Below are positions 789 through 64,000 of a DNA stretch of 64,000 nucleotides, piece after piece (within the stretch, counting starts at the first letter, position 1; every line of letters starts with the position of its first letter). Source of the stretch: a virus; IMG/VR virus record IMGVR_UViG_3300045988_176357, positions 128,053 through 192,052 of that record; one strand, 5' to 3'. A model generated the notes under the pieces. That model was given only the letters and a program-made list of their open reading frames with translations, was not told where the DNA came from and made no database searches. A program made the translations under genes and the position numbers.

Positions 789-1871
789 AAACGAAAGATA
801 TATCTTGTCAGTGACTGCCATGTGAAGTCACGATTATGGACCAACTTTGCTGCTGTGCAGGGCGACGCCTACATGGCAATGCGCAAGATGGCATCCGAAA
901 CCGACCCGTCAAGTGTGCTGATCTCCTGTGGAGATTTGCTCGACTCGAACAGACCCTCCAATGTCGACCTTGCCGAGACAGCCGAATTCCTGAACCACTT
1001 TCACAGGGTGCTGTACATAGCTGGCAACCATGACGACTGTCAGCCGTCTATCGTGCCTGTGATGTGTCCTTATGCGTTGCATCTGACACCTGATGATGTC
1101 GTTCGTGAAGGCAATCTCGTCATCTGCGGCATTGACTGGCAGCGCAGCAGGGAAGCATTCCTTGAGTGCCTTGCTCAGGCTGCACAAACACTCAGTGACG
1201 AGACCAAAGATGGCGGTCAACCCGTATTGATCATGCACCAGGCTGTGCACGATTTCCTGTCCATCGACGGCGCCAGCATGTGCACAGCAAAGGAAATCCT
1301 GGATACCGTAGGACAGGACGTCCTTGTGTACTCAGGCGACATCCATGTTGTGCAGCATGTCGCTTCCAGCCTTGGCAAAGGCAGAGTACAGTCTCCAGGT
1401 CCGCTCGTCCCTCAGGACACTTTGCAGGCCCGTAGACAGCAGGTTTACTGGGAACTCGACAGTGACACCGGGGTACCCACCCGGCACCCCGTCAGCGTGC
1501 GTTCTTTTGCGTTTCTTGACAGTGCCGCTCCCGACTTCGACCTTGCAGCGTCTCTGGATGCTCTTGACAGAAGCCTTGAGCTGCCGCCTGTTGCGATACT
1601 GCAGGTGCACGGTGACTATGTGCCGCCTAAAAGTCAGCTCAACAGAGAGGACTGCATTGTAGTTGTCCGTACGGAACGGACTTCGACAGAAGTAAGAACT
1701 GCAGATGAGTCCAGTGTAACTACACTGGAGGAAGCCATAGCTCAGGAAATTGAAGCTACCGAACCGCTGCTTGCTGACGTGTTGAAGCCGTTGGTGGACA
1801 GGCTGACAACTGCGGATAAACCTGACGAGCTTCTATCGACATTGCTTACGAATTGGGAGGTGACCACATGA
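786..1871 (+). CDS. Mre11/SbcD-like nuclease (calcineurin-like phosphoesterase)
   Basis: Motifs LVSDCH, GDLLD, GNHDD; sits upstream of a Rad50-like gene as in T4 gp47-gp46. Confidence 0.75.
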   Translation: MKRKIYLVSDCHVKSRLWTNFAAVQGDAYMAMRKMASETDPSSVLISCGDLLDSNRPSNVDLAETAEFLNHFHRVLYIAGNHDDCQPSIVPVMCPYALHLTPDDVVREGNLVICGIDWQRSREAFLECLAQAAQTLSDETKDGGQPVLIMHQAVHDFLSIDGASMCTAKEILDTVGQDVLVYSGDIHVVQHVASSLGKGRVQSPGPLVPQDTLQARRQQVYWELDSDTGVPTRHPVSVRSFAFLDSAAPDFDLAASLDALDRSLELPPVAILQVHGDYVPPKSQLNREDCIVVVRTERTSTEVRTADESSVTTLEEAIAQEIEATEPLLADVLKPLVDRLTTADKPDELLSTLLTNWEVTT

Positions 1872-2116
1872 TACAAGTCAAACACATGGATCTGTTTCAT
1901 TTCTGCCGGTTCGACAAGCTGTCGCTTGATGTACAGCCAGGTCTAACCAGAATAGCAGGTCCCAATGGCTCAGGTAAGACGACGGTCTTCAGAGCCCTGA
2001 TCTACGGTCTGACCGGTTGGTGTGATCCGACATGGGGCACACAAAGCGACCTGCAGCAGGACGATGAAAGCGTTCCAGGCTATGTCGAACTGACACTGTC
2101 GGTAGACGGCGAGGCT
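1853..2116 (+). CDS. Rad50/SbcC-like ATPase, exon 1 (Walker A GPNGSGKTT)
   Basis: N-terminal P-loop; ORF runs into the IStron 5' end (gct|taacaacc). Confidence 0.7.
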
Positions 2117-2605
2117 TAACAACCTCCATTGAGGAGTGATCCTCATTGCAAAGAAAGTGAATTGCTAATAGATCCCAAGAGCCTCACGATGCCTGTAACA
2201 AGGATCGAAAGAGAAAACAAAGAAGTGAGGATACCGCAAGGCGACAGTAAGCCTAAACGGGAGTGACAACGGACGTTTAGCAGCCGAGCCTTGTATCGAG
2301 AGATACCCGGTACAAGGAAGGTTCATCGACTAGGACATCGTGTCCGTACCCGAGCAGCCGTGTGCGTGATAACGCACGAAAGCAAGGGGAAGTACTCTGG
2401 CTCAGGAATGAGTCAATGAAATAGTCAGTGCTTCATGGAAACATGAAGAGTGGTCAGGAGTGACAACCTGAAACCTGCTACTGGGCGGCAACCGGTAGTG
2501 AACAGAACCATGGACTTCAATTGTATTGTTATTTCGTCAAGTTTTATTTACCGTTTTGATCTTTACAGAACGGAGTTATAATACTCTCAGTAACTGGAGA
2601 ACACT
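2117..2605 (+). ncRNA. group-I-like ribozyme portion of IStron A
   Basis: ~490 nt conserved across copies at 10680, 41443, 44361 and 51944, and the transposase-less copies at 31726 and 63703. Confidence 0.5.
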
Positions 2606-3739
2606 TTGGAACCAAGAGCACACATAATCAGATTGTACCCGACAAGGGCACAGGAGAAGCAGCTGAAGAATACCATCGGCTGCGCTCGTTATGCGTACAA
2701 TTGGGCTCTCGAGAAGTGGCGGGAGATGTATGCCGCACATGATAAGGACAAGGCTTCTCCAAAGCCAAGTGCCTTGAAGCTGACCAAGTTATGGACTCAG
2801 GAGAAGCCTGACTGGGCACATGAGACAGCTTATTGCAGCCAGCAAAGAGCGATACATAACGTAGGCGTCGCTTATCAGCGCCTTTAGAGGGGCTTATCGG
2901 CGAAGCCGAAGTTCCATAAGAAGGGCGGCAAGGAGACGTTTTACGTTGATAATGCGAAGGTCGCATGGTACGGCAATAGAATCCAGTTGCCCGACATCGG
3001 ACGTGTCCGCGTAGCGGAGCAGATCCGTTTCGAGGGCAAGGTAATGGGCTACACAGTGTCCCATTATGCCGGACAGTGGCATCTCATAGCTCAGGTCAAC
3101 GCCGAAGGCGACGTGAAACCTTACTGCGCCGATCCCGAGTCCGTCGTCGGTATCGACGTAGGACTTCTGAATCCGGCTGTAGCCTCCGATGGAACCGTCT
3201 TGCAGCTCCCCATAGAGAAGCTCCAAAAGCTTGACGCCAAGCTCAGGCGGCAGCAGAAGGCACTCTCCAGAAGTCAGCGCAACTCCAGAAACCACGCGAA
3301 GCTTCTCGTAAAGAAGCAGCGTACGCAGAATAAGATCAACAACATCCGAAAGGATGCAGTACATAAGTTCACGACCACCATTGCCAAGAGCCACGGCAAG
3401 GTAGTCATCGAAGATCTGGACATCCAAGGAATGAAGGATAAAGCTCCTTCAAGAGCCGTCAGAAGGGCGCATAACAGTTCCCTCATGGGCGCCATCCATC
3501 GGCAGCTCTCCTACAAAGTCCAGCACCTGATCAAGGTGAATCGCTTCTTCCCGTCTTCCAAGACCTGCAGCAACTGCGGGCACATAAGGAGCGCCCTTGA
3601 TTTAAGTGAACGTACATATCATTGCGACCACTGCGGAGCGGTCATCGACCGCGACCTCAATGCCGCAATCAACTTGATGAAATCAGGGCTGGTCAAGCCC
3701 GAAGCGTCTGTGGAGCAAGTCGGTACCGACTTGCGTTGA
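2606..3739 (+). CDS. tnpB: TnpB (IS605 OrfB family, RuvC-like + zinc finger CxxC..CxxC) with in-frame TAG at 2885-2887
   Basis: Same frame either side of the TAG; homologous to the intact copy at 11173-12288; C-terminal CSNCGH...CDHCG. Confidence 0.75.
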
Positions 3740-3779
3740 AGCAGAAAGTACAAACGGACGCAACGTCCGTAAGTTCATG

Positions 3780-5462
3780 ACAGAATACGTCCTGAAGAGG
3801 TTTGCAGGGACTGGTACGAAGCTGGTCGACACATTATGTAAAGACGATGCAATAATTGTTAAGAATCGTCAAAAAATAAATGCATGGTTAGAGCAGTTCA
3901 CAGGCATCTCTATGCCGGTAATGGCACAGTTGATGTGGTTGCGACAGGAAAACTCATCTTGGCTGCTGACGGCTACAGCTGCTCAGATCAACCAGTTCCT
4001 CGGTCTCATTTTCGACACCAAAAAGCTTGAGACCTACAGACAGCATCTGAAGAATGCCTGTGACAGCATACCGAAGCTGCGCGATGACTTTGACACAAGA
4101 AGGAAGCAAGCTGCAGAGACATTGCACCAGCAGTCCTCGCAGAAGGAGCTGCTGTCACAACAGCTGCAGGAACAGCAGGCACTTGTACAGGCTACACGGG
4201 AAACGCTGCAGGCATTTGGTAACAGCATGTCTGTAGCCGACCGTGACAAGATGCTGCGTCTGTGCGAACAGGAACTGGCAGTCTACAACAGAGACCTCGA
4301 CAAGTATAGGGATCTGCAGGAAGCTCCTGTCGTGGATATTGAAACCGAGACAGCAGCTGAGACTGCATTGGTCTCCAAAATATCTGCACAGCGGCTTGAA
4401 AAGTCAACTTGTGAGCGGATGCTGAACAGTGCCCGTGCCGATAGAGACAACAGCAAGTGGAGGCTTGATCAGCTGCGTCATATACATACGCCTGACACCT
4501 GTGAACTATGTGGTTGCAACCTCAGTACCAGTCCGGAAACGTACCGTAACAACAAAGTAAAACTGTTACTGCAGCAGTCTTTAAGCTACGAAGAGGCCAT
4601 CAGAACCTTTTCTGAGACCTACGAAACCAGTGCACATAAATGCATTGAACTGGAAAAGCGTATGGCCCTGCTTGAACATGCTATTGCTTCAGATAATAAA
4701 GTGCTGGAATCAATCGGACAGAAACGTGCTGAAAGACTCCGGTACATGGAACAGCTGCAGCATAAAACAGAGCTTCAACACAAGATTGAACAGGTGACTG
4801 CTGAAATCGAAAAGCTCAAGGCAACACCTGTGTACGATGCGTCTATATCGAAGCAGCAGATTGAAAGCATGCTTCGCAGTGCCGAAGCCAGAGAGACGGA
4901 ACTGAAATCCGCATATGAGACCTGTATTGCTTCTATTGCGTCTGCACAACAGATAATACATGATGCAGAAGAAGATGCTGTCAGGTATAAACGTAACGAA
5001 CGTGTGCGCCAGGTTCTGTCGACTTTGCGTGATGTTTTGTCACAAAGCAGAGCACAGGCAAGATACCTTAACAGCAAGATATCTGCCTTGAATGGCAATA
5101 TAGCTCACTATCTGCAACTGTCCGAGATGCCTTTCACAGTCTTCCTCGACCCTGCAGAGCATGTTTTCAAGTACAGGATGGATGATTGTGATGTGCAGCA
5201 TCAGGCAGGCATGCTGTCTGGTGCACAAAAGGCTGCCGCCGCAATTGCAATACAGATGTCGCTCGTTGTTACGGCAGTGCCGGATCTGACATTGCTTCTG
5301 CTGGATGAAGCGGATGCTTCGTTGTCACCGGAGAACAAAGTAATTGCTACCAAGCTTTACAGGGTCCTTGCAGAGACGCTCAGTGGAAGCGATGGCAGCA
5401 CATTCGTCATAAGTCAGTCAGACACTGTTGCTGCAGAATGTGACAGAGAAATAACACTATAA
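3780..5462 (+). CDS. Rad50/SbcC-like ATPase, exon 2 (coiled coil, CxxC zinc hook, signature motif and Walker B LLLDEAD)
   Basis: CELCGC hook in a coiled-coil region; C-terminal MLSGAQK...LLLDEADASLS. Confidence 0.7.
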   Translation, partial: TEYVLKRFAGTGTKLVDTLCKDDAIIVKNRQKINAWLEQFTGISMPVMAQLMWLRQENSSWLLTATAAQINQFLGLIFDTKKLETYRQHLKNACDSIPKLRDDFDTRRKQAAETLHQQSSQKELLSQQLQEQQALVQATRETLQAFGNSMSVADRDKMLRLCEQELAVYNRDLDKYRDLQEAPVVDIETETAAETALVSKISAQRLEKSTCERMLNSARADRDNSKWRLDQLRHIHTPDTCELCGCNLSTSPETYRNNKVKLLLQQSLSYEEAIRTFSETYETSAHKCIELEKRMALLEHAIASDNKVLESIGQKRAERLRYMEQLQHKTELQHKIEQVTAEIEKLKATPVYDASISKQQIESMLRSAEARETELKSAYETCIASIASAQQIIHDAEEDAVRYKRNERVRQVLSTLRDVLSQSRAQARYLNSKISALNGNIAHYLQLSEMPFTVFLDPAEHVFKYRMDDCDVQHQAGMLSGAQKAAAAIAIQMSLVVTAVPDLTLLLLDEADASLSPENKVIATKLYRVLAETLSGSDGSTFVISQSDTVAAECDREITL

Positions 5463-9597: not shown

Positions 9598-10679
9598 AGT
9601 ACAAGAAAGGTGAATTCGGTTACTGGTGGACCAGGAAAAATGAGGATATTGAAGGCGGAGAGTATGAGGGCTCCATATGTTGTCCTGAAAATCTTACGTC
9701 TTTAAGAGGAGCACCACGAATAGTGACAGGTGAATTCTTTTGTCACCGTTGCCGTATCACAACACTGAGAGGAGCGCCTGAGAAAGTAGGCGGAAATTTT
9801 AGCTGTGTTGAAACGAAGCTGACAGATCTGAAAGGAGCTCCTAAAGAAGTCGGCGGTAACTTCTACTGTGACATGTGCGGGCTGATATCTCTGGAAGGAG
9901 GTCCTCGCAGGATAGGAGGAAGCTTTTACTGCGATAACAACAAGCTCACTTCGTTAGAGGGCGGTCCCACTGAGATTTTCGGTGACTACAGATGCAGCTA
10001 TAACGAGCTTAAAAATTTGTTAGGCGCACCAGAAGTTATTCCTGGCGATTTCATCTGCAGTGAAACCACTCTTAATTCACTGGAGGGCTGTCCAAAAGTA
10101 GTGAAGGGCTCATTGATCCTGGACTATAATTCGCTCATATCCTTGGAGCATTGCGCTAAAAGTGTAGGAGGGGACTTCAATGTAAACTTCAATGGGCTTA
10201 AGTCGTTGTTAGGCGGGCCCGTATCTGTAGGAGGATCCTATAAGTGCGTGAACAATGATCTGCGTACTCTTTTTGGTTGTCCGTCAGTCATAAACGGAGA
10301 CTTTGAGTGCGCAGGCAATGCACTGAATGATCTTGCCTCCTGTCCAAGTAAAGTAACAGGTAATTTTGATTGCTGTAGTAATCATCTGGTTACCTTGGAA
10401 GGAGGTCCCACAGAGGTAGGCGGCGACTATGACTGCTCCGTCAATAATCTACAGACGCTTAAAGGAGCTCCATCGTGTGCTAACGGTGATTTTGATTGCA
10501 GCTTCAATGAATTGACAAGTCTTGAAGGCTCTCCTGATGTGGTGGCTGGAGAATTCGTCTGTCATAATAACAAATTGGAGTCTTTGGTCGGAGGACCTAG
10601 CGTAGTGTCCGCTCACTATTGCTGTTCGTACAATAACTTGAAGTCCCTGAGAGGGATTGCTCATAAAATCGGTGGAGCT
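9594..10679 (+). CDS. second BspA-like LRR protein, exon 1
   Basis: Same N-terminus and repeat pattern as 5473; ORF runs into the IStron B 5' end (gct|taacaact). Confidence 0.55.
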
Positions 10680-11172
10680 TAACAACTCCCTTTAACCAGT
10701 GATGGTTATTGAACAAGAAAGTGAATTGCTAATAGATCCCAAGAGCCTCACGACGCCAATAAAATGGATCGAAAGAGAAAACAAAGAAGTGAGGATACCG
10801 CAAGGCGACAATAAGCCTAAACGGGAGTGACAACGGACGTTTAGCAGCCGAGCCATGCGTTCGACAGAACGCCAGCGCATGGAAGGTTCATCGACTAGGA
10901 CATTGTGTCCGTACCCGAGCAGCCATGTGCGTGATAACGCACGAAAGCAAGGGGAAGTACTCTTGGTTGGGAACAACCAAATGAAATAGTCAGTGCTTCA
11001 TGGAAACATGAAGAGCGGTTAGGAGTGACAACCTGAAACCTGCTACTGGGTGGCAACCGGTAGTGAACAGAACCATGGACTTCAATTGTACTTTAATTTC
11101 ATCAAGAACATTTAACGTTTTGATCTTTACAGATACGGTGTATAATACACCTAAACTGAAGGTGTAAATTTC
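10680..11172 (+). ncRNA. group-I-like ribozyme portion of IStron B
   Basis: Conserved with the other copies. Confidence 0.5.
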
Positions 11173-12288
11173 ATGATCAGAACAAACGTCATAAGATTGT
11201 ACCCGACAAGGGCACAGGAAGCGCAGCTGAATAACACAGCTGGCGCTTGTCGTTTCGCATGGAATAAAGCCCTCAGTTACTGGGATGAGCAATATGAAGC
11301 TCATCTTAAGGATAAATCCATTCCGTTACCGATTTCTTCCAAAGTAGCAAGCTGGTATAAAGACAACCGCGAAGAATGGGCGTCCGAAACATCTTCTGTC
11401 TGTCAGCGCCAGGAAATACTTCACCTTGGCAAAGCCTTCCACAGCTACTTTAGACGTCCGGACCATTTCGCACATTCGAAGTTCCACAAGAAGGGAATTA
11501 AGGACTCATTCGAGGTTCCGAATGACAAGGCGAAAATCAAAGACGGCAGACTTTCATTGCCGAAGATAGGCGAAGTCAAAATGGCTGAGCCGCTTCGCTA
11601 CCAAGGCAAGATATGCAGCTACACAGTAAAGAAGTCAGGCGGCAACTGGTATGTTCACATACCTGTGGAAACAGGTAAGGACGAGAGAGTTCGTTGCATC
11701 AATCCAGAGTCCGTCGTCGGTATCGACGTAGGACTTCTGAATCCGGCTGTAGCCAGCGACGGCACCAAGCTGGAGCTCCCAAAGGAAACCTTGGACAAGC
11801 TCGACGCCAAACTCAGGCGACAGCAAAAGGCACTCTCCCGTTCACAAAGGAACTCCAGAAACCATGCCAAGCTTCTTCTCAAGAAGCAGCGTACTCAAAA
11901 TAAGATCAACAACATCCGAAAGGATGCAGTACACAAGTTCACGACCGCCATTGCCAAGAGCCACGGCAAGGTAGTCATTGAGGATCTGGATATAAAAGAG
12001 ATGAAGGCCAAGGCCCCCGCACGTTCAGTGCGTCGCGCCTACAACAGCTCCCTCATGGGCGCCATTCGCTGGCAGCTCTCTTACAAAGTCCAGCACCTGA
12101 TCAAGGTGAATCGTTTCTTCCCGTCTTCCAAGACCTGCAGCAACTGCGGGCACATAAAGGGCGACCTCACCGTAGGTGAACGTACATATCATTGCGACCA
12201 CTGCGGAGCGGTCATCGACCGCGACCTCAACGCCGCAATCAACTTGATGAAAGCAGGGCTGGTCAAGCCCGAAGTGTCTGTGGAGTAA
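11173..12288 (+). CDS. tnpB: TnpB, intact, 371 aa
   Basis: IS605 OrfB N-terminus MIRTNVIRLYPT; C-terminal zinc finger; Shine-Dalgarno site upstream. Confidence 0.85.
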   Translation: MIRTNVIRLYPTRAQEAQLNNTAGACRFAWNKALSYWDEQYEAHLKDKSIPLPISSKVASWYKDNREEWASETSSVCQRQEILHLGKAFHSYFRRPDHFAHSKFHKKGIKDSFEVPNDKAKIKDGRLSLPKIGEVKMAEPLRYQGKICSYTVKKSGGNWYVHIPVETGKDERVRCINPESVVGIDVGLLNPAVASDGTKLELPKETLDKLDAKLRRQQKALSRSQRNSRNHAKLLLKKQRTQNKINNIRKDAVHKFTTAIAKSHGKVVIEDLDIKEMKAKAPARSVRRAYNSSLMGAIRWQLSYKVQHLIKVNRFFPSSKTCSNCGHIKGDLTVGERTYHCDHCGAVIDRDLNAAINLMKAGLVKPEVSVE

Positions 12289-12349
12289 GCTGGTACCAGC
12301 TTACGTTGAATCAGAAAGTACAGACGGACGCAATGTCCGTAAGTTCATG

Positions 12350-12590
12350 ACAGACATATATTGCGCCGATAATGAGCTGCCTGTTGCTGACAGCAAAAGA
12401 GCAAGATACGCTTTCGAAGCCAAGGATAATCTGCTGGAGGTATGTGGTGGCTTATAACAAGAACGTCGAGTATTTGTACTCCGTCGTATTTCCTTCGTTT
12501 AGTTCCAGCAAGGCGGTGCATGATGAGCTGGTGCACAGACACAGGAAAGAGACGGAAAAGGTGGGATATGTCCGAAGCAAGTTTGACTGA
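12350..12590 (+). other. 3' exon of LRR gene 2, with an apparent frame discontinuity
   Basis: Frame starting at 12350 continues the LRR pattern (IGGATDIYCADNELP) but stops at ~12457; a different frame (12372-12590) matches the LRR C-terminal domain (AVHDELVH vs AMHDGEAYAH). Confidence 0.35.
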
Positions 12591-30265: not shown

Positions 30266-31725
30266 ATGCTGGAAACAAAAGTCATGTTCAATGCTACAGA
30301 GATCACGATCAAAGTGTCTGTGTGGGCGCGGGGTGATCCGTTCCCTGCTATTGGACATGCTGTAGGTATAGACACAGAAACCGAACTGATTACAGACGCC
30401 GAGCTTACGCCTCCGTTGGTTGTACTCGGCGTTTTTAATCCTGCTGACATGACCTGCTACCAGATATCCTGGACCGACGCGCAGTACTTCATGCAGGAAC
30501 TGCTTAAGCGTGACTGCAAGCTGTACTTCGCCAATGCAGGATTTGATTACTTCGAGCTTGAAAGCGATGAACTTCGAGATGCGGTCAGCAATGACCGTCT
30601 CGTAGACTTGCTCATCAGGGCTCCGCTGAAAGAGATCGCTACGATAGGTTACATCAGAACGCACAGCCTGAAGGATGCCTGCCAGTGGCATCTCAATTAC
30701 GAGATGGACAAGCACGAGGATGAAGGCGACCAGGCAGCTCGTGTCACGTTCCGAAGGAACAAGGACATTACAGATGAGCAGCGCATTTACCTGACAATCG
30801 ACTGTGCGTCCACCTATTATGCATGCGAGGCGATCGGGCCTCAGGCGACAGAGTGCACGCATACACGTGGGCAGATCGTCCTGTATCATATCAGCAAGAA
30901 CGGCTTTCCGTATGATCCGTACATGTTTGATTACTGCGAGAAGCTGTTACAGCAGCATATGGACCAGTACCGTGCAGAGCTCATCACGTACGGGTATCCT
31001 GATCCATACAAGAAGGACATGCCGACAGATATCAAGCAGCTGCAGGACGGCTGGCCGATGTTCAGGGACGCCTGGTTCGCCGCTCATATCAAAGAGAAGT
31101 ACCAGTTCGAGGACTCGCTGCCAGGCAAGAGCACTGTAAAGCGCATATTGCTGTACGGCACTGCGTATATGCAGCACGGTACCGATAAAGGCACTCTGGC
31201 ACGAGTGTTCGCAGCATTGCTGCTGCAGGACAAGAACCTGTCCAAGAAGGAACAGGCTGCATATGACCAATTGGTGGAGGAGCACGACTTTCTGGATGCC
31301 TGCAACGGTGTTGGCAAGAAGGAGGTTTGGCCGACGCTGCTGGTTGCGTGGATGCGTGCCGAGCTGGATGGCAAGGACATTGCTGGCATCTGGCAGGCAG
31401 TGGACGATGCGGTGCAGGACCACCCGCAGTGGTTCTGTACTGAGGAGCCTGTCAAGCCCAAGGCGTTCATGCAGGACCATCTGCGGGAACTGCAGGAAAA
31501 GTACCCTGGACTGGAGTTCGACAAGACGCTCAAGTCAGGTGAACTGAAGTGCTCCAAGAAGGACGCGTGGAAGTTGGCGGATGCGGGAGTGAACGATCCG
31601 CTGCTGACCGCGTACGTAAACTTTGGCCATGTGCAAAAGTATAAGTCGTCGTTTACCAATAGGGAATACCTGAGGAGCGACGGCAGAGTGCGGTGCCGCT
31701 TTGGCATCGTGGAGAGCGGTCGGTT
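30266..31725 (+). CDS. family-A DNA polymerase, exon 1 (3'-5' exonuclease domain plus N-terminal polymerase domain)
   Basis: Exo I GIDTETE, Exo II FANAGFDYFEL; ORF then reads into intron 1. Confidence 0.75.
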
Positions 31726-32051
31726 TGGCCGCTTCACACCGCGAGGTGTGTCGAACAAGAAAGTGAATTGCTGGGACACCTTAACGGGTAACGCCGAAGG
31801 CAATCAGCAGCCGAGCCATGCGTTCGACAGAACGCCAGCGCATGGAAGGTTCATCGACTATCCCGTACGTAATGGGAGTACCCGAGTAGCCATGTGCGTG
31901 ATAACGCACGAAAGCAAGGGGAAGCACTCTGGCTCAGGAATGAGTCAATGATATAGTCAGTGCGCTTATGGAAACATAAGGAGTGGTCAGGAGTGACAAC
32001 CTGAAACCTGCTACTGGGCGGCAACCGGTAGTGAACAAGATCCTTGGTGTG
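31726..32051 (+). ncRNA. polA intron 1: transposase-less IStron-type group-I-like intron
   Basis: Hairpin cacacc-gcga-ggtgtg plus the conserved core; ends ...ccttggtgtg; junction restores ..SGRFT|ISSLRTSASKPNLQQYP (PolA TGRLSS..PNLQNIP region). Confidence 0.55.
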
Positions 32052-32183
32052 TACAATATCAAGCCTGCGTACATCGGCATCTAAGCCGAATCTCCAACAA
32101 TATCCGTCACACGATCCGGTGTTTGCCTTGAAAAACATGTACAAGCCACCGGATGGAACCATTTTTGTCAGCGTAGACTATAG
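32052..32183 (+). CDS. polA exon 2 (through motif A ..VSVDYS)
   Basis: PNLQQYP and VSVDYS motifs. Confidence 0.6.
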
Positions 32184-33227: not shown

Positions 33228-33465
33228 CGCAGAGTTGGTCGCGCTGGCAGAATCGTGCATAACAAAGTACGGCGAGTCCGTATTAGGCACTATTATCAAC
33301 GCGGATGTATGTCCGCATTACTTCTTCGCCGGTGTCATGATGGGTCTCATAGACGCCGACGTCAGCTTTTGCAGGGATCCCCAGGAAGTGGATCGTGTCA
33401 AGAAGTTCCTTAAAGAGCACGTAAGCAAGGAAGAAAGACAGAGAGCAAAAGCAGTTAATTTCGGT
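33228..33465 (+). CDS. polA exon 3 (O-helix / motif B up to ..RQRAKAVNFG)
   Basis: Motif B RRxAKxxNFG. Confidence 0.65.
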
Positions 33466-40815: not shown

Positions 40816-41431
40816 GATGTTGTTGCAGAAACTGAAGATCGCGCGCGAAAGCAGTTCGCGTGTTGTCTTCTGCTATAAGTATGTCTGGTCCCGAATCGAC
40901 GACTATGTGTCACTGACCAATCTGAGACTGGAAGCAATACAGGTCCGCGACGGCAAGGTCTTCCATACACAGGCCGCTCCAGTGCTTGATGTGAACCATG
41001 GTAAGCCCAGAGTCGCATTCGCAGATTCCGGTATCGTGCAGGTCACCTCAGGACCCCGATCGAACATTGTCTTGAGAGAACGTCTGCTGCACGCCAACGA
41101 GACAGCAGCTCCGGTTCCCTTTTGTGGAACCAGGGAAATTACAGAAAGCAGCGATGAGAAGGATCTTCAGGTAGTCTATGACTTCCTGACATCCGCAGCC
41201 TTTCCTGGCGTGGATATGCGCATGCCGCAGTTGTTCCGGATCACGAAGAACCCTGAAAGGCTGCGCCTGAACATCACACCTGACTTGCTGCAGGCTCTTG
41301 ATCTGGATCCCGGAACACCCAGTAAGGAGATACAGGATGCGTTCCTGAACAAACTGCCTTCCATTTCAGCGCAGACATCCGAAGGATACGTGTTGCCGTT
41401 CAACGTGTGCCGCATGTGTTTCACATGCTGA
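40803..41431 (+). CDS. hypothetical protein
   Basis: ORF. Confidence 0.4.
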
Positions 41432-41442
41432 CCAGCACACAA

Positions 41443-43010
41443 AGGACTCCTTGGCGCGTGAGCGCCATTGAACAAGAAAGTGAATTGCTGGAACACCTTA
41501 ACGGGTCATGCCGAAGGCAATCAGCAGCCGAGCTTATGGATGCCCAGACCGGGCGCCGTGAGAAGGTTCATCGACTATCCCGGAAGGGAGTACCCGAGCA
41601 GCCATGTGACCGGCAGGTCACGAAAGCAAGGGGAAGCACTCTGGCTCAGGAATGAGTCAATGATATAGTCAGTGCGCTTATGGAAACATAAGGAGTGGTC
41701 AGGAGTGACAACCTGAAACCTGCTACTGGGCGGCAACCGGTAGTGAACAGAACCATGGTCTCAAAATAGCAACATTATTTTGACGTTTTGATTTTCATAA
41801 AGGTGATGTATATTATCTGTATACAATAAGGAGCGCCATGTACAGAGCCCATAAGATACGCATAGATTGCACAAAAGAGCAGCACAGTCTGTTAATGCAG
41901 ACTGCAGGCTGCGCTCGTTATGCGTACAACTGGGGACTCGAGAAGTGGGGCAAGCAGTACGAAGCCTGGAAGGCTGATAGCAGCTTGGAGGAACCCAACT
42001 GGGTTAACATATCCAGACAGTGGACACAAGAGAAACCTGAATGGGCAAACAAGACAGCACGCAGTGCTGTTACCTGCTCACTGCGTAATCTCGGCACCGC
42101 CTTCAAGAACTTCTCAAGGCGCAAAGCAAAGTACCCGAAGAGGCATAAGAGGTCTCAAGGAATCTCCTTCCAGCTTGGAAACGATACCTGCAGTATCGAA
42201 GGCAACCGCATCAGGCTGCCTATCATAGACTACGTAAAGCTCCGTGAGACTCCACGATTCCAAGGCAAGATAACAGGCTACACAGTGCAGCTCATCGCTT
42301 CCCACTGGTACGTGACAGTCGCCTTCGACTGTCCAGACGTCCCCAAAGAAGCTCCAGAGTCCGTCGTCGGTATCGACGTAGGACTCCAGCACCCGGCTGT
42401 AGCCTCCGATGGAACAGTACTCCAGCTCCCTCTTGAGAAACTACAGAAGCTCGAAGCCAAACGGCGCAGAGCTCAGCGAGCCCTTTCAAGGAGCAAACGC
42501 AATTCCAATGCGCGAGAGCGCAAGCGTGATAGACTCCAACGTATACAGCAGAGGATCACCAACATCCGACAGGATGCAGTTCACAAGTTTACGACTGCAG
42601 TGTGCAAAAACCACGCCACTGTAGTCACCGAAGATCTGGACATAAACGAGCTCAAAGACAAGGCCCCCGCACGTTCAGTGCGCAGAGCCTACAACAGCTC
42701 CCTTATGGGACTCATTTTGTTCCAGATCTCGTACAAGGCGGTGCACCACGTAAAGGCACCCAAGTTCTTCCCGAGCACCAAGAGATGCTCAACTTGTGGA
42801 CACATTAAGGAGGCCATGCCTCCGCAAATCAGAACATACCATTGCGACCACTGCGGAGCCCATCTCGACAGAGATGAGAACGCAGCTCGCAACTTGATGT
42901 TGCAACCGTGGGTCACACGGTAAGAGGCGCGGTGATGGTACAGGCAGCGTCAGCTGCAGGTACCAGATGATCCGCGAAGACAGTCCGGTGCAACGCCGGA
43001 TGAGATCATG
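41443..43010 (+). mobile_element. IStron copy 4 (subfamily 2), apparently intergenic
   Basis: Hairpin ggcgc-gtga-gcgcc then the core; right-end hairpin atccgg-tgcaacg-ccggat + gagatcatg. Confidence 0.65.
41838..42923 (+). CDS. tnpB: TnpB, intact, 361 aa
   Basis: OrfB N-terminus; zinc finger. Confidence 0.85.
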   Translation: MYRAHKIRIDCTKEQHSLLMQTAGCARYAYNWGLEKWGKQYEAWKADSSLEEPNWVNISRQWTQEKPEWANKTARSAVTCSLRNLGTAFKNFSRRKAKYPKRHKRSQGISFQLGNDTCSIEGNRIRLPIIDYVKLRETPRFQGKITGYTVQLIASHWYVTVAFDCPDVPKEAPESVVGIDVGLQHPAVASDGTVLQLPLEKLQKLEAKRRRAQRALSRSKRNSNARERKRDRLQRIQQRITNIRQDAVHKFTTAVCKNHATVVTEDLDINELKDKAPARSVRRAYNSSLMGLILFQISYKAVHHVKAPKFFPSTKRCSTCGHIKEAMPPQIRTYHCDHCGAHLDRDENAARNLMLQPWVTR

Positions 43011-43119
43011 ACAGTGACTGGGTATATGCAGGCGGCATGATCGCTGCAAGTATAACAGGCATCGGCAAGCATAAGCCTAAGGTACTGTACACCAGAGGTA
43101 TGGACTTCTTCCGTAACTG

Positions 43120-44260: not shown

Positions 44261-44261
44261 T

Positions 44262-44360
44262 GTGTTGGATACATCTATCAGACCTCCGGATAAATGGAGG
44301 GCAGCAGCAATACCAAAGAAAGACGGATCGTTCAAAATATACTACATATTAGGTATACGT
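44262..44360 (+). CDS. retron-type reverse transcriptase, 5' exon (..AIPKKDGSF..)
   Basis: IPKKDGSF finger motif in a frame open from 44241; start codon uncertain (GTG or TTG). Confidence 0.45.
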
Positions 44361-45928
44361 AAAGGACGCCTTGGCGCGTGAGCGCCATTGAACAAGAAAG
44401 TGAATTGCTGGGACACCTTAACGGGTAATGCCGAAGGCAATCAGCAGCCGAGCTTATGGATGCCCAGACCGGGCGCCATGAGAAGGTTCATCGACTATCC
44501 CATATGGGAGTACCCGAGCAGCCTGGCTGCGACAGCAGCGAAAGCAAGGGGAAGCACTCTGGCTCAGGAATGAGTCAATGATATAGTCAGTGCGCTTATG
44601 GAAACATAAGGAGTGGTCAGGAGTGACAACCTGAAACCTGCTACTGGGCGGCAACCGGTAGTGAACAGAACCATGGTCTCAAAATAGCAACATTATTTTG
44701 ACGTTTTGATTTTCATAAAGGTGATGTATATTATCTGTATACAATAAGGAGCGCCATGTACAGAGCCCATAAGATACGCATAGATTGCACAAAAGAGCAG
44801 CACAGTCTGTTAATGCAGACTGCAGGCTGCGCTCGTTATGCGTACAATTGGGGTCTCGAGAGGTGGGGCAAGATGTACGAAGCCTGGAAGGCTGACAACA
44901 GCTTGGAGAAACCCAACTGGAAAAACATATCCAGACAGTGGACACAAGAGAAACCTGAATGGGCGAACAAGACGACACGCAGTGCTGTCACTTGCTCACT
45001 AAGCAATCTCGGTACTGCCTTCAAGAACTTCATAAGGCGCAAAGCAAAGTACCCGAAGAAGCACAAGAGGTCCCAAGGAATCTCATTCCAGCTTGGAAAC
45101 GATACCTGCAGTATCGAAGGCAACCGCATCAGGCTGCCTATCATAGACTACGTAAAGCTCAGAGAGCTTCCGCGCTTCCAAGGCAAAATCACAGGCTACA
45201 CAGTTCAGTACATAGCTTCCCACTGGTACGTGATAGTCGCCTTCGACTGTCCAGACGTCCCCAAAGAAGCGCCAGAGTCCGTCGTCGGTATCGACGTAGG
45301 ACTCCAGCAACCAGCTGTAGCCTCAGATGGAACCAAGCTAGAGCTACCCATAGAGAAGCTCCAGAAGCTCGAAGCCAAACGACGCAGAGCTCAGCGAGCC
45401 CTTAGCAGGAGCAAGAGGAATTCCAATGCGCGAGAGCGCAAACGGGCCAAGCTTCAACGTATACAACAGAAGATCATCAACATCCGTCAGGATGCAGTTC
45501 ACAAGTTTACGACTGCAGTGTGCAAAAACCACGCAACTGTAGTCACCGAAGATCTGAACATAAACGAGCTCAAAGACAAGGCCCCCGCACGTTCAGTGCG
45601 CAGAGCCTACAACAGCTCCCTTATGGGACTCATTTTGTTCCAGATCTCGTACAAGGCGGTGCACCACGTAAAGGCACCCAAGTTCTTCCCGAGCACCAAG
45701 AGATGCTCAACTTGTGGACACATTAAGGAGGCCATGCCTCCGCAAATCAGAACATACCATTGCGACCACTGCGGAGCCCATCTCGACAGAGATGAGAACG
45801 CAGCTCGCAACTTAATGTTGCAACCGTGGGTCACACGGTAAGATGCGCGGTGATGGTGCTTGTGACATTCGTCACGAGCTCCAGACGATCCGCGAAGACA
45901 ATCCGGTGCAACGCCGGATGAGATCATG
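44361..45928 (+). mobile_element. IStron copy 5 (subfamily 2) inside the RT gene
   Basis: ~93% identical to copy 4; same ends. Confidence 0.65.
44756..45841 (+). CDS. tnpB: TnpB, intact, 361 aa
   Basis: Near-identical to 41838. Confidence 0.85.
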   Translation: MYRAHKIRIDCTKEQHSLLMQTAGCARYAYNWGLERWGKMYEAWKADNSLEKPNWKNISRQWTQEKPEWANKTTRSAVTCSLSNLGTAFKNFIRRKAKYPKKHKRSQGISFQLGNDTCSIEGNRIRLPIIDYVKLRELPRFQGKITGYTVQYIASHWYVIVAFDCPDVPKEAPESVVGIDVGLQQPAVASDGTKLELPIEKLQKLEAKRRRAQRALSRSKRNSNARERKRAKLQRIQQKIINIRQDAVHKFTTAVCKNHATVVTEDLNINELKDKAPARSVRRAYNSSLMGLILFQISYKAVHHVKAPKFFPSTKRCSTCGHIKEAMPPQIRTYHCDHCGAHLDRDENAARNLMLQPWVTR

Positions 45929-46791
45929 ACAGAAGGTACCTGTTGATACCTAACGACGAACTGAAACAAAGACAAAGAGAAATCCTCGACTACCTGTACA
46001 AGGCGCATCTGAGAGTGCACGAGGCTGCTGTCGGCTTCATGCCGAACAAGTGTACTCTCAACGGCTGCTTGCAGCATGCTGCCGATGCACAGGTAATTAT
46101 CAACCTTGATGTACATGATTTCTTCCCCAGCTTTCCTGTAGATAAAGTCAGGTCAGTGTTGACAGCCCAGCTAGGCGCGGCAGTTGCAGACTACATTGTC
46201 GATATAGCAACTTTTAAAGGTAAGCATAGACAGCAGTTGCCTCAAGGTGCGCCGACTAGCCCGTATCTTACCAACATTGCACTTTACAAGTTCGATTGCA
46301 ATATGGCGGCAAATGCGAAACGCAGAGGATTCACGTATACGCGATATGCGGATGACATCACATTGGCGAGCAGCAGCGAGATGCGTGTCAACTACATCAA
46401 GACTCTGATTCACGGAACTGAAAGAAGGTTGCGTGCGCTCGGTCTTACGCTGTCCAGGAAGAAAACAAATGTCATATTCAGGAACAGTCCGCGTGTTCCG
46501 AGACGCATAACAGGGGTAACTGTTCGTAAGGATGGATTCGGATTCAATGCACCTATCGGCTTGCGCAAGCAGGCTCGGGCAATGATACACAACCTGTACA
46601 CAGCACTTAAGAGCGGTGTGCCTGCACAGGAACTTGTACCTGAATATCGCAGTGCAATGGGTACTGTGCAGTATTGCGACTTTATTCGCAGTGCCAGTAT
46701 TGTTCCTGAATGTGCAACAGCCGACCCGGCTATAAAAACACATGAACTCGAATATGTAAAGGGGGTCTTCCGTGCCTATAGACATTATTGA
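45929..46791 (+). CDS. retron-type reverse transcriptase, 3' exon
   Basis: Aligns with Ec86 RT: NLDVHDFFPS, QLPQGAPTSPYLTN, RYADDITL, ITGVTV. Confidence 0.75.
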
Positions 46792-50521: not shown

Positions 50522-51943
50522 ATGATCATCATTGCAACTGCTAACAACAACGAAAACCTCAACAACATCAGGATCAACCTTGACAACAGCATCTCTCTCG
50601 GTCAGCTTCTCGACAGAGATGATGTTCGTGCATTCTTCCACAATGCCAGCAAAGAGAGCATTCTGGCAAGCCTCGTTACCATTGACGGACTCGATGCCTA
50701 TGCCATTACGAATGCGAGCTCTCTGACTGTTGACAATACTATGGAATTGCAGTTCGACATCTACGGCAGAGCACCGGAGACCGCACATACAGCTGCTGCT
50801 TCCGCCGGGTTCGTCACAATTACTCAGGGCGGAGGTTTCAACAGCAAGCGTGTGCCTATTGTGTCAGATACGACAAGAGCAGGGGATGTGCTTACACAGG
50901 ATGTGGCCAATTTCTTCGCCACAACTGTGGATACTCTGCACAATATGCGTATTCTTATCAATGATGTCGAGGCGGAAACAACAGCTGTACTGCACGACGG
51001 CGACGCGATTACTCTCATGTCCAGAAAGTGCGGCGACAAGGGGGCATGTGTACCCATTCTTGCAATTACGCATACTGACGGATCTGTGACGAGACATGCA
51101 GTCCTTGCAGGTTCCAGGCTCAAGGAATGTCTCTCCAGGATTGTTCCCGGTGCGGTAGTGCTGTCTATCGACGGTACAGCGGTACCCATGAACTTCTATG
51201 ATGCTATTGTAGAAGGCAAGCTGGTTGACAAGGACATGCAAGTGACTGTCAACGATAACAAGAAGTGCACGGTGCATTGCTGCGCCAATGACGGCAGTGA
51301 TCCGGTCGACATGATCCTGGATGATGGCAGTTCTGTGATGGACCTGCTTACCAAAGTACAGGACAAGTTTGAAAACGCTGAGATCTATGTCTTTGACGTG
51401 GACGGCGATCTGGTACCGGAAGCTTTCGCCGATACCATCCTGACTAATACACTTGTCGTTGATGGTATGTATGTAACTTTCAGTTCGCTGCGTGAGATGC
51501 CTGTTGTACATGGCTATATGAACATGGAAGACGACAGCGAAGAAGATGAAGAAGATGAAGAAGATGGTGCTGAGTATGCAGATGACGAGCAGGTACTTGA
51601 AGGTCCTGCAGAAGATGCTGTAGGCGCCGTAACAGTCGTTCTTCCCGGGGGCTTCAGCACCTCTCAGGTCGCAATCAGGAACAATGTGACGAAGCTTCGT
51701 GATGTTGTTCTCAGCGCACGTATTCTGAATATGTCTGCGATGAACGAAAGCCAGGCGCAGACTCTCGTATACACAGTGAACGATGTCGAGAGCAATCTCG
51801 ATGATACTCTGAGCATCGGTGATGTGATCCGGATGTCTGCACGTAAAGCAGGCGACAAAGGAAGTGCATTGAAAGTTACTGTCAAGCTGATGGATGCCAC
51901 CGAATTCCGGTATGACGTGGAGCCGGGGACAAGGCTCGAGGCT
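50522..51943 (+). CDS. multi-domain ubiquitin-like protein, exon 1
   Basis: Repeated ~90-aa modules ending (I/M)S(R/A)K(C/A)GDKG; acidic linker; ORF runs into the IStron E 5' end. Confidence 0.45.
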
Positions 51944-53606: not shown

Positions 53607-54017
53607 ACAGATTTCCTTATGTCTAATTATCCGGACTCCATTGTACTTGGCATCAATGGTGTCAGGGTAGATCCTGAGTTCTATGTGCCTGTTCTTGATG
53701 GCTTCACCCTGAACAGAGATACTGTGCTGATTGTGAAGGCCAGCCCGAAGATGACAGTGCACTGTTACTCCGGACATGTCGAGCCAAGCCTCTACTGCAC
53801 ATCTTATAAGATGAATTACGACAGTACCGTACAGGACTTGCTTAAACTGGTACAGAAGGACTTCGGCAATGAAGACATACGCGTGACGCAGATTGATCTC
53901 AAGGACGTACCGGAAGACTTTATGCAGGTTATCCTGGCAGGCACGTTTATTACAGAGCAAATGGTTGTTACTTTCAATGAGCTCAATGGAGCGGGAAAGG
54001 CACGCAAGACACTGTAA
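53607..54017 (+). CDS. multi-ubiquitin-like protein, exon 2 (ends ..NGAGKARKTL)
   Basis: In-frame continuation after the IStron. Confidence 0.45.
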   Translation, partial: TDFLMSNYPDSIVLGINGVRVDPEFYVPVLDGFTLNRDTVLIVKASPKMTVHCYSGHVEPSLYCTSYKMNYDSTVQDLLKLVQKDFGNEDIRVTQIDLKDVPEDFMQVILAGTFITEQMVVTFNELNGAGKARKTL

Positions 54018-59430: not shown

Positions 59431-59475
59431 AACATTCAGCCGGGTACTTATGTGCCCGGCATAAGGACAAACGAA

Positions 59476-63700: not shown

Positions 63701-63702
63701 GA

Positions 63703-64000
63703 TTGGCCCCTTCACACCGCGAGGTGTGTCGAACAAGAAAGTGAATTGCTGGGACACCTTAACGGGTCATGCCGAAGGCAATCAGCAGCCGAGCCTTGTA
63801 TCGAGAGCTACCCGGTACAAGAAAGGTTCATCGACTATCCCATAAGGAATGGGAGTACCCGACAAGTGAAGGGGAAGCACTCTTGGTTGGGAACAACCAA
63901 ATGATATAGTCAGTGCTTCATGGAAACATGAAGAGTGGTCTCGAAAGAGAAACCTGGCGGTACGTAACGAGTACCGTTGAACAGAACCTTGGTGTGTACA
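63703..64000 (+). ncRNA. transposase-less IStron-type group-I-like intron in nrdD (runs to the window edge)
   Basis: ttggccccttcacaccgcgaggtgtgtcgaacaagaaagtgaattgctggg...; same type as polA intron 1; window ends at ...ccttggtgtgtaca. Confidence 0.5.

What the first reader, a model, noticed from the sequence alone, without database searches (positions are those of the whole stretch)
2117..3779. IStron (group-I-like intron fused to IS605-family tnpB) splits the Rad50/SbcC-like gene
The Walker-A N-terminus (1853-2116) and the coiled-coil/zinc-hook/Walker-B remainder (3780-5462) are separated by 1.66 kb: a ~490-nt structured segment plus tnpB. The ends are precise. 5' is ...gct|taacaacc with a GNRA-loop hairpin gagga-gtga-tcctc. 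3' is a hairpin acggacg-caa-cgtccgt followed by aagttcatG|aca.

Removing the element gives the in-frame junction ...SVDGEA|TEYVLKRF. There is no tnpA. This matches the IStron architecture known from clostridia, where expression of the host gene depends on self-splicing.
Basis: partly seen in the sequence, partly recalled or inferred. Interest (0 to 1): 0.6.

Follow-up and report, generated by a model that had tools for sequence, protein, structure and literature searches.

The report
Self-splicing transposon splits phage Rad50 gene

Summary
The insertion is real and it is an IStron. Two related viral contigs carry the same Rad50-like gene uninterrupted (95% aa identity). They show that the inserted DNA is window 2115-3783 (CTTAACAA...CATGACAG), not 2117-3779, and that exact removal restores ...VDGE|EYVLKRF.

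The 5' ~415 nt form a group I ribozyme. The Rfam match is weak, but covariation is strong, including P3 and P7. tnpB (2606-3739) carries an in-frame TAG. The last ~100 nt look like a TnpB guide-RNA scaffold. There is no tnpA.

The window holds seven related intron copies, five of them with tnpB, plus two weaker introns. They sit in a DNA polymerase, NrdD, a reverse transcriptase and other genes. Ten insertion sites are occupied in one phage and empty in a relative.

The last four exon bases pair with the intron guide sequence and covary with it (GAGG/CCUC, GGAG/CUCC, GGCG/CGCC, NGUU/GACN). The TnpB N-terminal half tracks the target type.

A 5' exon ending in G at a GAGG site has a precedent in "group B" IStrons. 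This is a new member of a known kind. Its unusual features are that no copy in the lineage has tnpA, the copy density in a phage is high, and the TAG is conserved under purifying selection.

The parts
1868..2114 (+). Rad50/SbcC-like gene, exon 1. The ATG at 1868 overlaps the stop of the Mre11-like gene 786-1871. The exon ends ...GGC GAG G.
   Evidence: AAA_23 and SMC_N with Walker A. Collinear with L079 and L078 up to 2114.
2115..3783 (+). IStron copy A, the inserted DNA: CTTAACAACCTCC...GTTCATGACAG, 1669 nt.
   Evidence: Absent from the otherwise collinear Rad50 genes of L078 and L079. The empty site reads GAGG|AATAC.
2115..2530 (+). Group I ribozyme (IA2-like, P1 to P9.2). Helices: P1 exon 2111-2114 GAGG with 2123-2126 CCUC; P2 2130-2145; P3 2155-2159 with 2393-2396; P4 2162-2167 with 2278-2283; P7 2328-2332 with 2422-2426; P7.1 2333-2345; P7.2 2362-2377; P8 2399-2414; P9 2432-2447; P9.1 2455-2470; P9.2 2478-2498.
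   Evidence: Rfam Intron_gpI 2116-2448 at 26.9 bits, E 6e-4. Covariation. Coordinates.
2509..2517 (+). 5' arm (CAUGGACUU) of the stem that closes the tnpB-containing loop. It pairs with 3771-3779.
   Evidence: Compensatory variants in copies E, F, L080 and L087.
2606..3739 (+). tnpB, 377 codons, with an in-frame TAG at 2885-2887. The RuvC D (GIDVG), E (IEDL) and D (DRD) residues and the zinc-finger CxxC pairs are present.
   Evidence: Pfam and NCBIfam. The TAG is shared with C, L009_2 and L086. dN/dS is 0.05-0.08 on both sides of it.
3686..3783 (+). Putative omega-RNA scaffold 3' part and right end. SL1 is 3686-3700 (loop GGUCA), SL2 is 3715-3734, SL3 is 3755-3769. The 3' arm of the closing stem is 3771-3779. 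UGAC at 3778-3781 is complementary to the SL1 loop. The terminal G at 3783 is the proposed omega-G.
   Evidence: Consensus fold with compensatory changes between families. Coordinates. The layout matches the three-stem-loop plus pseudoknot scaffold described in 10.1101/2023.11.20.567912.
3784..5462 (+). Rad50/SbcC-like gene, exon 2 (AA TAC GTC ...), with coiled coil, CxxC hook and Walker B. The first ~16-20 nt would be the guide or target segment of the omega-RNA.
   Evidence: Collinear with L079 and L078 from 3783 or 3784 on. The spliced N-lobe aligns to T. maritima Rad50 3qf7 across the junction.
10678..12353 (+). IStron copy B. Target GGAG|, guide sequence CUCC, P2 AACCA/UGGUU. tnpB 11173-12288 is intact (371 aa).
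51942..53610 (+). IStron copy C, 98% identical to A. Target CGAGG|, same TAG.
   Evidence: Empty site in L009.
31721..32067 (+). Related group I intron D, without tnpB, in the family-A DNA polymerase gene (..ESG|RTSASKPNLQ..).
   Evidence: Rfam at 40.9 bits, E 4e-9. The spliced product aligns to Taq Pol I across the junction.
41401..43014 (+). IStron copy E (family 2). Target ..CGTT|, ends ..GATCATGACAG. tnpB 41838-42923 is intact.
44333..45932 (+). IStron copy F (family 2), splitting a reverse-transcriptase gene.
   Evidence: The empty allele in L055 reads IPKKDGSLRYLLIPNDKLK. RVT_1 hit.
63701..64000 (+). Related intron G in the NrdD gene, cut by the window end. The 5' boundary is accurate to about 1 nt.

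Best explanation
Window 2115-3783 is an IStron, a mobile element with three overlapping functions. It is inserted in the sense orientation after the tetranucleotide GAGG in codon 83 of a phage Rad50/SbcC-like gene.

(1) Ribozyme. The first ~415 nt fold into a group I (IA2-like) ribozyme.
- The last four exon bases (GAGG, 2111-2114) pair with the intron guide sequence CCUC (2123-2126) to form P1.
- A 9-bp stem (2509-2517 with 3771-3779) closes the loop that holds tnpB. This places the 3' end ...ACAG| next to the core.
- Splicing at G2114|C2115 and G3783|A3784 would restore GAG GAA TAC (..DGEEYV..), the exact sequence of the uninterrupted alleles.
- The 5' exon therefore ends in G paired with C, not in the usual U.G. 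This was shown experimentally for the 'group B' IStron BcISt1.

(2) tnpB. tnpB (2606-3739) encodes an RNA-guided RuvC nuclease. In this copy it carries an in-frame TAG.

(3) Guide RNA. The last ~100-150 nt form three stem-loops plus a UGAC/GUCA pseudoknot. This is the layout of a TnpB omega-RNA scaffold, and its guide would be the first ~16-20 nt of exon 2.

Proposed spread. No copy has a transposase gene (tnpA). The most likely route between phages is homing. TnpB with its omega-RNA would cut the intron-less allele (TAM CGAGG plus target) in a co-infecting relative, and recombinational repair would copy the element in. Movement to new sites needs an unknown extra activity.

Shown here: the insertion and its ends, the ribozyme fold, the tnpB and omega-RNA-like modules, the presence/absence polymorphism, and the target/guide-sequence covariation.

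Inferred: splicing in vivo at these junctions, TnpB activity, and homing.

The confidence given (0.8) is for the identity of the element as an IStron that splices at the DNA insertion boundaries. The homing step alone I would put near 0.45.
For: Ends
- Empty Rad50 alleles in L078 and L079 fix the boundaries.
- The same CTTAACAA...CATGACAG ends flank B, C, L009-1, L009-2, L086 and L092.
- Ten occupied/empty site pairs are seen among related phages.

Ribozyme
- Rfam Intron_gpI matches at E 6e-4 (copy A) and 4e-9 (copy D).
- In 16 homologues, 95.8% of cells pair, against 29-43% when partners are slid. The covariation score is 0.575 against 0.06-0.10. 29 of 50 pairs have double changes.
- P7 shows AU to GC, CG to UA and UA to CG changes. 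P3 is 100% paired.

P1
- Exon and guide sequence covary: GAGG/CCUC, GGAG/CUCC, GGCG/CGCC, and AGUU/GACU versus CGUU/GACG.

Closing stem and 3' splice site
- The closing stem covaries in four versions.
- In the ORF-less intron D, the 3' splice site lies 4 nt after the equivalent stem. This site was fixed independently by the Pol I motif.

tnpB and guide RNA
- tnpB domains are present.
- The omega-RNA-like stems show compensatory changes between families. The nexus loop GGUCA and the terminal UGAC are invariant.

Host gene
- Both Rad50 exons are open and in frame. The spliced N-lobe aligns to Rad50 3qf7 across the junction.

No tnpA
- None lies in the five full copies.
- None was found in 40 window ORFs.
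- None was found next to homologues in ten other contigs.

Protein-level target recognition
- The TnpB N-terminal half tracks the target type. It is 95-97% identical within a type and 41% between types, while the C-terminal half is 88-94% identical.
- 6 of 7 GAGG sites have C at position -5, which cannot pair with the guide sequence.

Precedents
- PMC4227781 describes GAGG targets, a 5' exon ending in G, and the ORF-B-only IStron CsISt1 ending in CAG.
Against: - The Rfam score is below the gathering threshold for every copy (26.9-40.9 bits against 50).
- P1 is only 4 bp and lacks the canonical U.G.
- No RNA data exist, so splicing and its exact sites are inferred from DNA.
- The tnpB of this very copy has a premature TAG, so copy A may not make TnpB.
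- No suppressor tRNA was found.
- Homing cannot explain arrival at new sites.
- The transposase type (IS605 tyrosine or IS607 serine) cannot be assigned. NCBIfam scores are ambiguous. The left-end and right-end hairpins are dissimilar. The core dinucleotides match only in the GGAG type.
- The window is 64 kb of a larger genome, so a tnpA elsewhere is not excluded.
Confidence: 0.8

Rival explanations
1. The RNA splices where the first reader placed the ends (after GCU at 2116 and after CAUG at 3779). This would give a canonical exon-terminal U and leave a 6-nt scar (CU + ACAG), so that Ala-Thr is added to Rad50 (..GEATEY..).
For: - The exon would end in U and the intron in G, as in almost all group I introns.
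- The scar is in frame in A, B and C.
Against: - That U is unpaired in the P1 loop, and no G partner is available.
- CAUG lies inside the covarying closing stem.
- In intron D the 3' splice site is 4 nt beyond that stem.
- In family 2 the scar would not be in frame in the same way.
- BcISt1 was shown to splice after G at the DNA boundary (PMC4227781).
- Uninterrupted alleles lack Ala-Thr.
Confidence: 0.08
2. The element is a plain TnpB-only insertion sequence that does not splice, so the Rad50-like gene is a pseudogene or a split gene.
For: - No RNA evidence exists.
- Rfam scores are below gathering.
- tnpB carries a stop, which suggests decay.
Against: - The ribozyme core is maintained by compensatory changes across copies and distant relatives.
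- Both exons stay open and in frame.
- Sister copies sit in DNA polymerase motifs, NrdD and an RT, always in sense orientation and always with frame-restoring ends.
- A and C differ by 2% without damage to any helix.
Confidence: 0.05
3. The element spreads mainly by classical transposition. A TnpA (IS607-type serine or IS605-type tyrosine enzyme) would be supplied in trans by the host or by an unseen part of the phage genome. TnpB would serve only for retention, as in the bacterial IStrons studied so far.
For: - Many different insertion sites share a short motif and have no target duplication.
- GAGG and AG/CAG ends match reported group B IStrons.
- The TAG-bearing A type has reached at least 5 sites.
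Against: - No tnpA was found in any of more than 15 copies or their surroundings.
- Family 2 ends (..GTT| and ..CAG|) share no core dinucleotide.
- The left-end hairpin changes completely between types while the right end does not.
Confidence: 0.35

Closest known systems
Group B (IS607-type) IStrons: BcISt1 of Bacillus cereus, CboIStron and CbISt3/4 of Clostridium botulinum plasmids and phages c-st and D-1873, CsISt1 of C. sporogenes
   Same: - An IA2-type group I ribozyme at the 5' end and tnpB downstream in the same sense.
- Insertion after a G-ending site. GAGG is a listed target.
- The 5' exon ends in G paired with C.
- The omega-RNA overlaps the 3' splice site.
- CsISt1 is ORF-B-only, inserts after AG and ends in CAG. 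CbISt3/4 are phage-borne.
   Different: - The element ends in ACAG, not CGG.
- The closing stem is short (9-10 bp) and compositionally balanced, not a 15-34 bp AU-rich stem.
- No serine-recombinase tnpA occurs anywhere in the lineage.
- TnpB is at most ~35% identical to any TnpB in cultured phages.
- Sister elements with the same right end insert after ..GTT with a canonical U.G.
Group A (IS200/IS605-type) IStrons: CdISt1 of Clostridioides difficile
   Same: - Ribozyme plus tnpB.
- A short, balanced closing stem.
- A 3' end of the ..CAG type (TCAG against ACAG).
- Target specificity on the 5' side only and no target duplication.
- Family 2 copies (E, F) have an exon-terminal U.
   Different: - Copy A's target is GAGG, not a T-rich pentanucleotide.
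- There is no tyrosine tnpA.
- The left-end and right-end hairpins are unlike each other.
Phage group I introns with homing endonucleases (T4 td, nrdD/sunY, Twort orf142 introns)
   Same: - IA2-like ribozymes in essential DNA-metabolism genes of large phages (Pol, NrdD).
- Presence/absence polymorphism between relatives.
- Spread is presumed to occur by cleavage of the intron-less allele during co-infection.
   Different: - The nuclease is an RNA-guided TnpB rather than a protein-only GIY-YIG, HNH or LAGLIDADG enzyme.
- The same element occupies many unrelated sites.

Membership tests
IStron (any group) | A group I ribozyme forms the 5' part of the element. | tested here: met
   Rfam at E 6e-4 (A) and 4e-9 (D). 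P3-P9 covariation.
IStron (any group) | An IS200/IS605/IS607-type ORF B (tnpB) lies downstream in the same orientation, inside the intron. | tested here: met
   Pfam HTH_OrfB_IS605, OrfB_IS605 and Cas12f1-like_TNB. NCBIfam guided_TnpB at 260 bits against a cutoff of 100. The gene is enclosed by the covarying stem 2509-2517/3771-3779.
IStron (any group) | Element ends coincide with points whose joining restores the host ORF, with no target duplication. | tested here: met
   Empty alleles.
IStron (any group) | Self-splicing from the host transcript. | not testable with these tools
   Needs RT-PCR or in vitro splicing.
Group B / IS607-type IStron | Insertion after a G-ending site (AGGG, TGGG or GAGG), with the 5' exon ending in G paired with C. 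| tested here: met
   The target is GAGG| in 7 sites and GGAG| in 3. G(-1) pairs with C of CCUC or CUCC.
Group B / IS607-type IStron | The 3' end is CGG (CAG in CsISt1). | tested here: inconclusive
   All copies end in ACAG. This fits only the CsISt1 variant.
Group B / IS607-type IStron | A serine-recombinase tnpA, or its remnant. | tested here: not met
   No ORF lies between the ribozyme and tnpB in any copy. No resolvase hit in 40 window ORFs.
Group B / IS607-type IStron | A long AU-rich closing stem (15-34 bp, more than 80% AU). | tested here: not met
   The stem is 9-10 bp and compositionally balanced.
Group A / IS200-IS605-type IStron | A T-rich pentanucleotide target ending in U, and a TCAG 3' end. 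| tested here: not met
   Copy A's target is CGAGG. Family 2 copies E and F insert after NGTT and so meet this only partly.
Group A / IS200-IS605-type IStron | A tyrosine (HUH) tnpA and similar subterminal palindromes at both ends. | tested here: not met
   No Y1_Tnp hit. The left-end hairpin (UGAGGA..UCCUCA) is unlike the right-end hairpin (CGGACG..CGUCCG).
TnpB / OMEGA nuclease with omega-RNA | A RuvC D-E-D triad, a zinc finger, and a 3'-overlapping structured RNA that ends at the element boundary. | tested here: met
   The motifs GIDVG, IEDL, DRD and CxxC...CxxC are present. Three covarying stem-loops and a UGAC/GUCA complement are present. Nuclease activity was not tested, and copy A has an in-frame TAG.
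Group I intron, canonical 5' splice site | A U.G wobble pair at the last exon position in P1. | tested here: not met
   In family 1 the pair is G-C. It is met in D, E and F (GCGGU/GCCGC, CGUU/GACG).

The most novel reading that the evidence does not exclude
These are transposase-free IStrons that behave as RNA-guided homing introns of large gut or rumen phages.
- TnpB with its omega-RNA would replace the protein homing endonuclease.
- New target specificities would arise by swapping a module made of the intron guide sequence, P2 and the TnpB N-terminal (TAM-reading) half. The RuvC half, the omega-RNA and the right end would stay shared.
- The conserved in-frame TAG in the GAGG-type tnpB would be decoded, by suppression or late-infection recoding, and so act as an expression switch.
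Probability: 0.3. Interest if true: 0.75.

Novelty: new member of a known kind. Interest (0 to 1): 0.55.

Why it matters
IStrons have been studied mainly in clostridial and Bacillus chromosomes, plasmids and prophages. There TnpA moves them and TnpB retains them.

This case shows three things:
- The same three-part design thrives without any tnpA in a lineage of uncultured large phages.
- It reaches a density of at least 9 group I introns, five of them with tnpB, in 64 kb, and it sits in essential replication genes.
- Sites are occupied in one phage and empty in its relative.

That gives a natural system in which to test whether TnpB alone can drive intron homing between co-infecting phages. 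It also allows study of how the RNA-level target (P1) and the protein-level target (TAM) co-evolve. For annotation, it explains why several core genes of these phages appear truncated.

Tried and rejected
- DNA search of the element against cultured phages found no match.
- Whole-window Rfam at gathering threshold found nothing. The introns are only seen with E-value thresholds.
- My first-guess boundaries for family 2, taken from where copies E and F become identical (41441 and 44361), were wrong. Independent insertions in L031 and L055 show that the left end starts at CAA after ..GTT.
- General TAG recoding of the window was tested and not supported. No other gene is bridged by TAG, and there is no suppressor tRNA in the window or in 18 loci.
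- Assigning TnpB to IS605 or IS607 with NCBIfam was ambiguous.
- A Rad50 search against cultured phages gave only two weak hits, so no cultured relative was found.
- One scan of bacterial genomes for the ribozyme found six MAG contigs from four unrelated taxa. This gives no reliable host assignment and no tnpA.
- P10 pairing with the 3' exon was looked for by eye and not found.

Full report
**1. What is in the sequence**

ORF and domain scans give the following layout:
- A Mre11-like phosphoesterase gene lies at 786-1871.
- A Rad50/SbcC-like N-terminus with Walker A starts at ATG 1868. It hits AAA_23 at E 1e-10.
- A 1.66-kb interruption follows.
- The rest of the Rad50-like gene runs to 5462. 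It hits SMC_N and has a CxxC hook.

The interruption holds a 377-codon tnpB (2606-3739). This gene has HTH_OrfB_IS605, OrfB_IS605 and Cas12f1-like_TNB domains. It is broken by one in-frame TAG at 2885-2887. About 490 nt without any ORF precede it.

**2. The true ends**

A search with the spliced protein found two viral contigs, L078 and L079 (the latter a 95-kb contig). Their Rad50-like gene is 95% identical and uninterrupted.
- The empty site reads GACGGCGAGG|AATACG (..VDGEEYV..).
- The window reads GACGGCGAGG[CTTAACAACC...GTTCATGACAG]AATACG.
- The inserted DNA is therefore 2115-3783 (1669 nt, with a 1-nt ambiguity at G).

**3. It is multi-copy and mobile**

A core 17-mer occurs 7 times on the + strand, against 0.08 expected by chance. 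BLAST and nhmmer define the copies:
- Family 1 comprises A, B (10678-12353) and C (51942-53610).
- Family 2 comprises E (41401-43014) and F (44333-45932).
- Related tnpB-less introns are D (31721-32067, in a family-A DNA polymerase) and G (from ~63701, in NrdD).
- Two weaker Rfam group I matches lie in the polymerase gene, at 32177-32485 and 34884-35212.

Comparison with related contigs shows presence/absence polymorphism:
- Sites A, C and F are empty in relatives.
- The relatives carry copies at seven window sites that are empty here: about 14074, 20580, 22532, 55081, 56590, 56944 and 59112.
- Further copies occur in other metagenomes (L086, L092, L085, L080, L087).

**4. Target rule**

- Family 1 always starts CTTAACAA and ends CATGACAG.
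- It inserts after GAGG when intron nt 9-12 are CCUC, and after GGAG when they are CUCC.
- L085 inserts after GGCG and has CGCC.
- Family 2 starts CAA.., has the same CATGACAG end, and inserts after NGTT. The exon NGUU pairs with GACN: AGUU/GACU in L031 and L055, and CGUU/GACG in F. This gives a canonical U.G.

The last four exon bases and the internal guide sequence therefore covary, which is P1 of a group I intron.

In 6 of 7 GAGG sites position -5 is C. That base cannot pair with the guide sequence, which points to additional recognition at the DNA or protein level.

**5. The ribozyme**

- Rfam Intron_gpI matches A at 26.9 bits (E 6e-4) and D at 40.9 bits (E 4e-9). Both are below the gathering score of 50.
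- An alignment of 16 homologues from the window and viral contigs gives a consensus with P2, P4, P5, P6, P7, P8, P9 and P9.2. 29 pairs show double changes.
- Adding P3 as a pseudoknot, 95.8% of cells pair, against 29-43% when partners are slid. The covariation score is 0.575 against 0.06-0.10. None of 500 shuffles reaches the observed pairing or covariation score.
- P7 (GACUA/UAGUC) changes to GAUCA/UGAUC and GGUCA/UGACC in relatives.
- Two covarying hairpins lie between P7 and P3'. They fit P7.1 and P7.2 of subgroup IA2, the subgroup of all described IStrons. This last point is an inference and was not formally classified.

**6. The 3' splice site**

- A stem joins CAUGGACUU (2509-2517) to AAGUUCAUG (3771-3779) and encloses tnpB.
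- It covaries in four versions.
- Four unpaired bases follow it (ACAG|).
- In the ORF-less intron D the equivalent stem (CUUG/CAAG) is followed by CCUG|. That junction is fixed independently, because the spliced polymerase reads ..ESGRTSASKPNLQ.., aligned without a gap to TGRLSSSDPNLQ of Taq Pol I.
- This supports splicing after ACAG rather than after CAUG, which lies inside the stem.

**7. The 5' splice site**

- Exact restoration requires cleavage after G2114, which is paired with C2123.
- This is unusual for group I introns.
- It is reported for 'group B' IStrons, which insert after AGGG, TGGG or GAGG. BcISt1 was shown to splice after G (PMC4227781; review PMC13565253).

**8. TnpB and guide RNA**

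- The intact sister TnpB scores 260 bits on NCBIfam guided_TnpB. Its scores on the IS200 and IS607 subtype models are ambiguous.
- The RuvC and zinc-finger motifs are present in copy A.
- The last ~100 nt form three stem-loops with compensatory changes between families.
- An invariant nexus loop GGUCA is complementary to the invariant terminal UGAC. This is the scaffold layout described for IStron omega-RNAs (10.1101/2023.11.20.567912).
- The guide would be the start of exon 2.
- The L078 allele matches that start for 31 nt. L079 differs at positions 6-8.

**9. No tnpA**

- There is no room or ORF for it in any full copy.
- 40 window ORFs gave no Y1_Tnp or resolvase hit.
- TnpB homologues at 40-92% identity, examined in ten other contigs, all have the ribozyme directly upstream. 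In the five checked for it the element ends in ATCATGACAG. None has tnpA.
- Those metagenomic contigs carry phage-type neighbour genes (Rad50-like, helicase, DnaB, RusA, ThyX) where neighbours were listed. Their sample names point to gut or rumen material.

**10. Modularity**

- TnpB N-terminal halves are 95-97% identical within a target type but 41% identical between the GAGG and GGAG types.
- The C-terminal halves are 88-94% identical.
- The guide sequence, P2 and the TnpB N-terminal half therefore travel together. The RuvC half, the omega-RNA and the right end are shared.

**11. The TAG**

- Copies A, C, L009_2 and L086 sit at four different sites and share the TAG.
- L092 has CGG at that codon and P0005 has Trp there.
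- Between A and L009_2, pS is 0.23-0.25 and dN/dS is 0.08 before the TAG and 0.05 after it.
- The 33 codons between the TAG and the next possible start codon are less clearly constrained: 6 synonymous-only and 5 amino-acid-changing variable codons.
- TAG terminates only 1 of 49 window genes.
- No other gene needs TAG read-through, and no suppressor tRNA was seen.
- Read-through, a two-piece protein, or gene conversion among copies all remain open.

**12. Verdict**

- The element is a new member of the IStron class. It is closest to group B elements and to the ORF-B-only CsISt1.
- Its lineage-level features may be new: no tnpA, high density in phages, and both G-type and U-type targets sharing one right end. 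I found no paper describing them in the held library.
- Splicing, TnpB activity and homing are inferred, not shown.

Noticed in passing
window 2885-2887 (also 52712-52714; L009:11642-11644; L086:1206-1208): The in-frame TAG in GAGG-type tnpB is conserved in four copies at four sites. dN/dS is 0.05-0.08 on both sides of it. Other copies have CGG (Arg) or Trp at that codon. TAG ends only 1 of 49 genes in the window.
   Followed up: partly
window 16500-17526, inside ORF 15865-18363: A DnaB/KaiC-like ATPase gene carries a 1027-nt in-frame insert that is absent from the relative L031. The insert hits Hom_end_hint and LAGLIDADG homing-endonuclease domains, so it is an intein.
   Followed up: partly
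window 30266-35200: The family-A DNA polymerase gene is broken several times. The breaks are intron D (31721-32067) and two further Rfam group I matches, 32177-32485 (37 bits) and 34884-35212 (26 bits). About 800 nt (33458-34267) are absent from the relative L042.
   Followed up: partly
window 62632-64000: The anaerobic ribonucleotide reductase gene (ATP-cone + NRDD) is interrupted by related intron G, which is cut by the window end. This parallels the classic T4 nrdD intron.
   Followed up: partly
window ~44241-44332 + 45933-46791: The phage encodes a reverse transcriptase (RVT_1, YADD motif), which is itself split by IStron F. Its role is unknown. It could in principle support reverse-splicing-based intron movement.
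   Followed up: no
window 46772-47692 and 49195-50148: Prok-E2_D and ThiF (E1-like) genes lie next to the RT gene. They may form a ubiquitin-like conjugation module in a phage.
   Followed up: no
window 20905-21504, 25026-25267, 35989-36400, 59469-60100: At least four paralogous genes contain long arrays of 15-nt (pentapeptide-type) repeats. Neighbours of TnpB homologues in other contigs carry Pentapeptide and DUF7666 domains.
   Followed up: no
window 6679-6774, 7455-7550, 13482-13577, 25701-25796, 26560-26655, 37816-37911, 39798-39893: A small-protein family with the conserved motif CPDWAQYAAVD is present in about eight paralogous copies across the window.
   Followed up: no
L079:4248-4270 versus window 3784-3806: The empty Rad50 allele of the 95-kb relative differs from the putative guide at positions 6-8 (GTC to ACT, Val to Thr). 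The L078 allele matches perfectly. This may be an allele resistant to TnpB targeting.
   Followed up: no
L009:5162-6839 and L009:10871-12540; L031:6089-; L055:9055-; L004:10258-; L017:1-497; L062:1-71: Related phages carry IStron copies at seven window sites that are empty here, among them the 3' end of the ThyX gene (window ~59112).
   Followed up: yes
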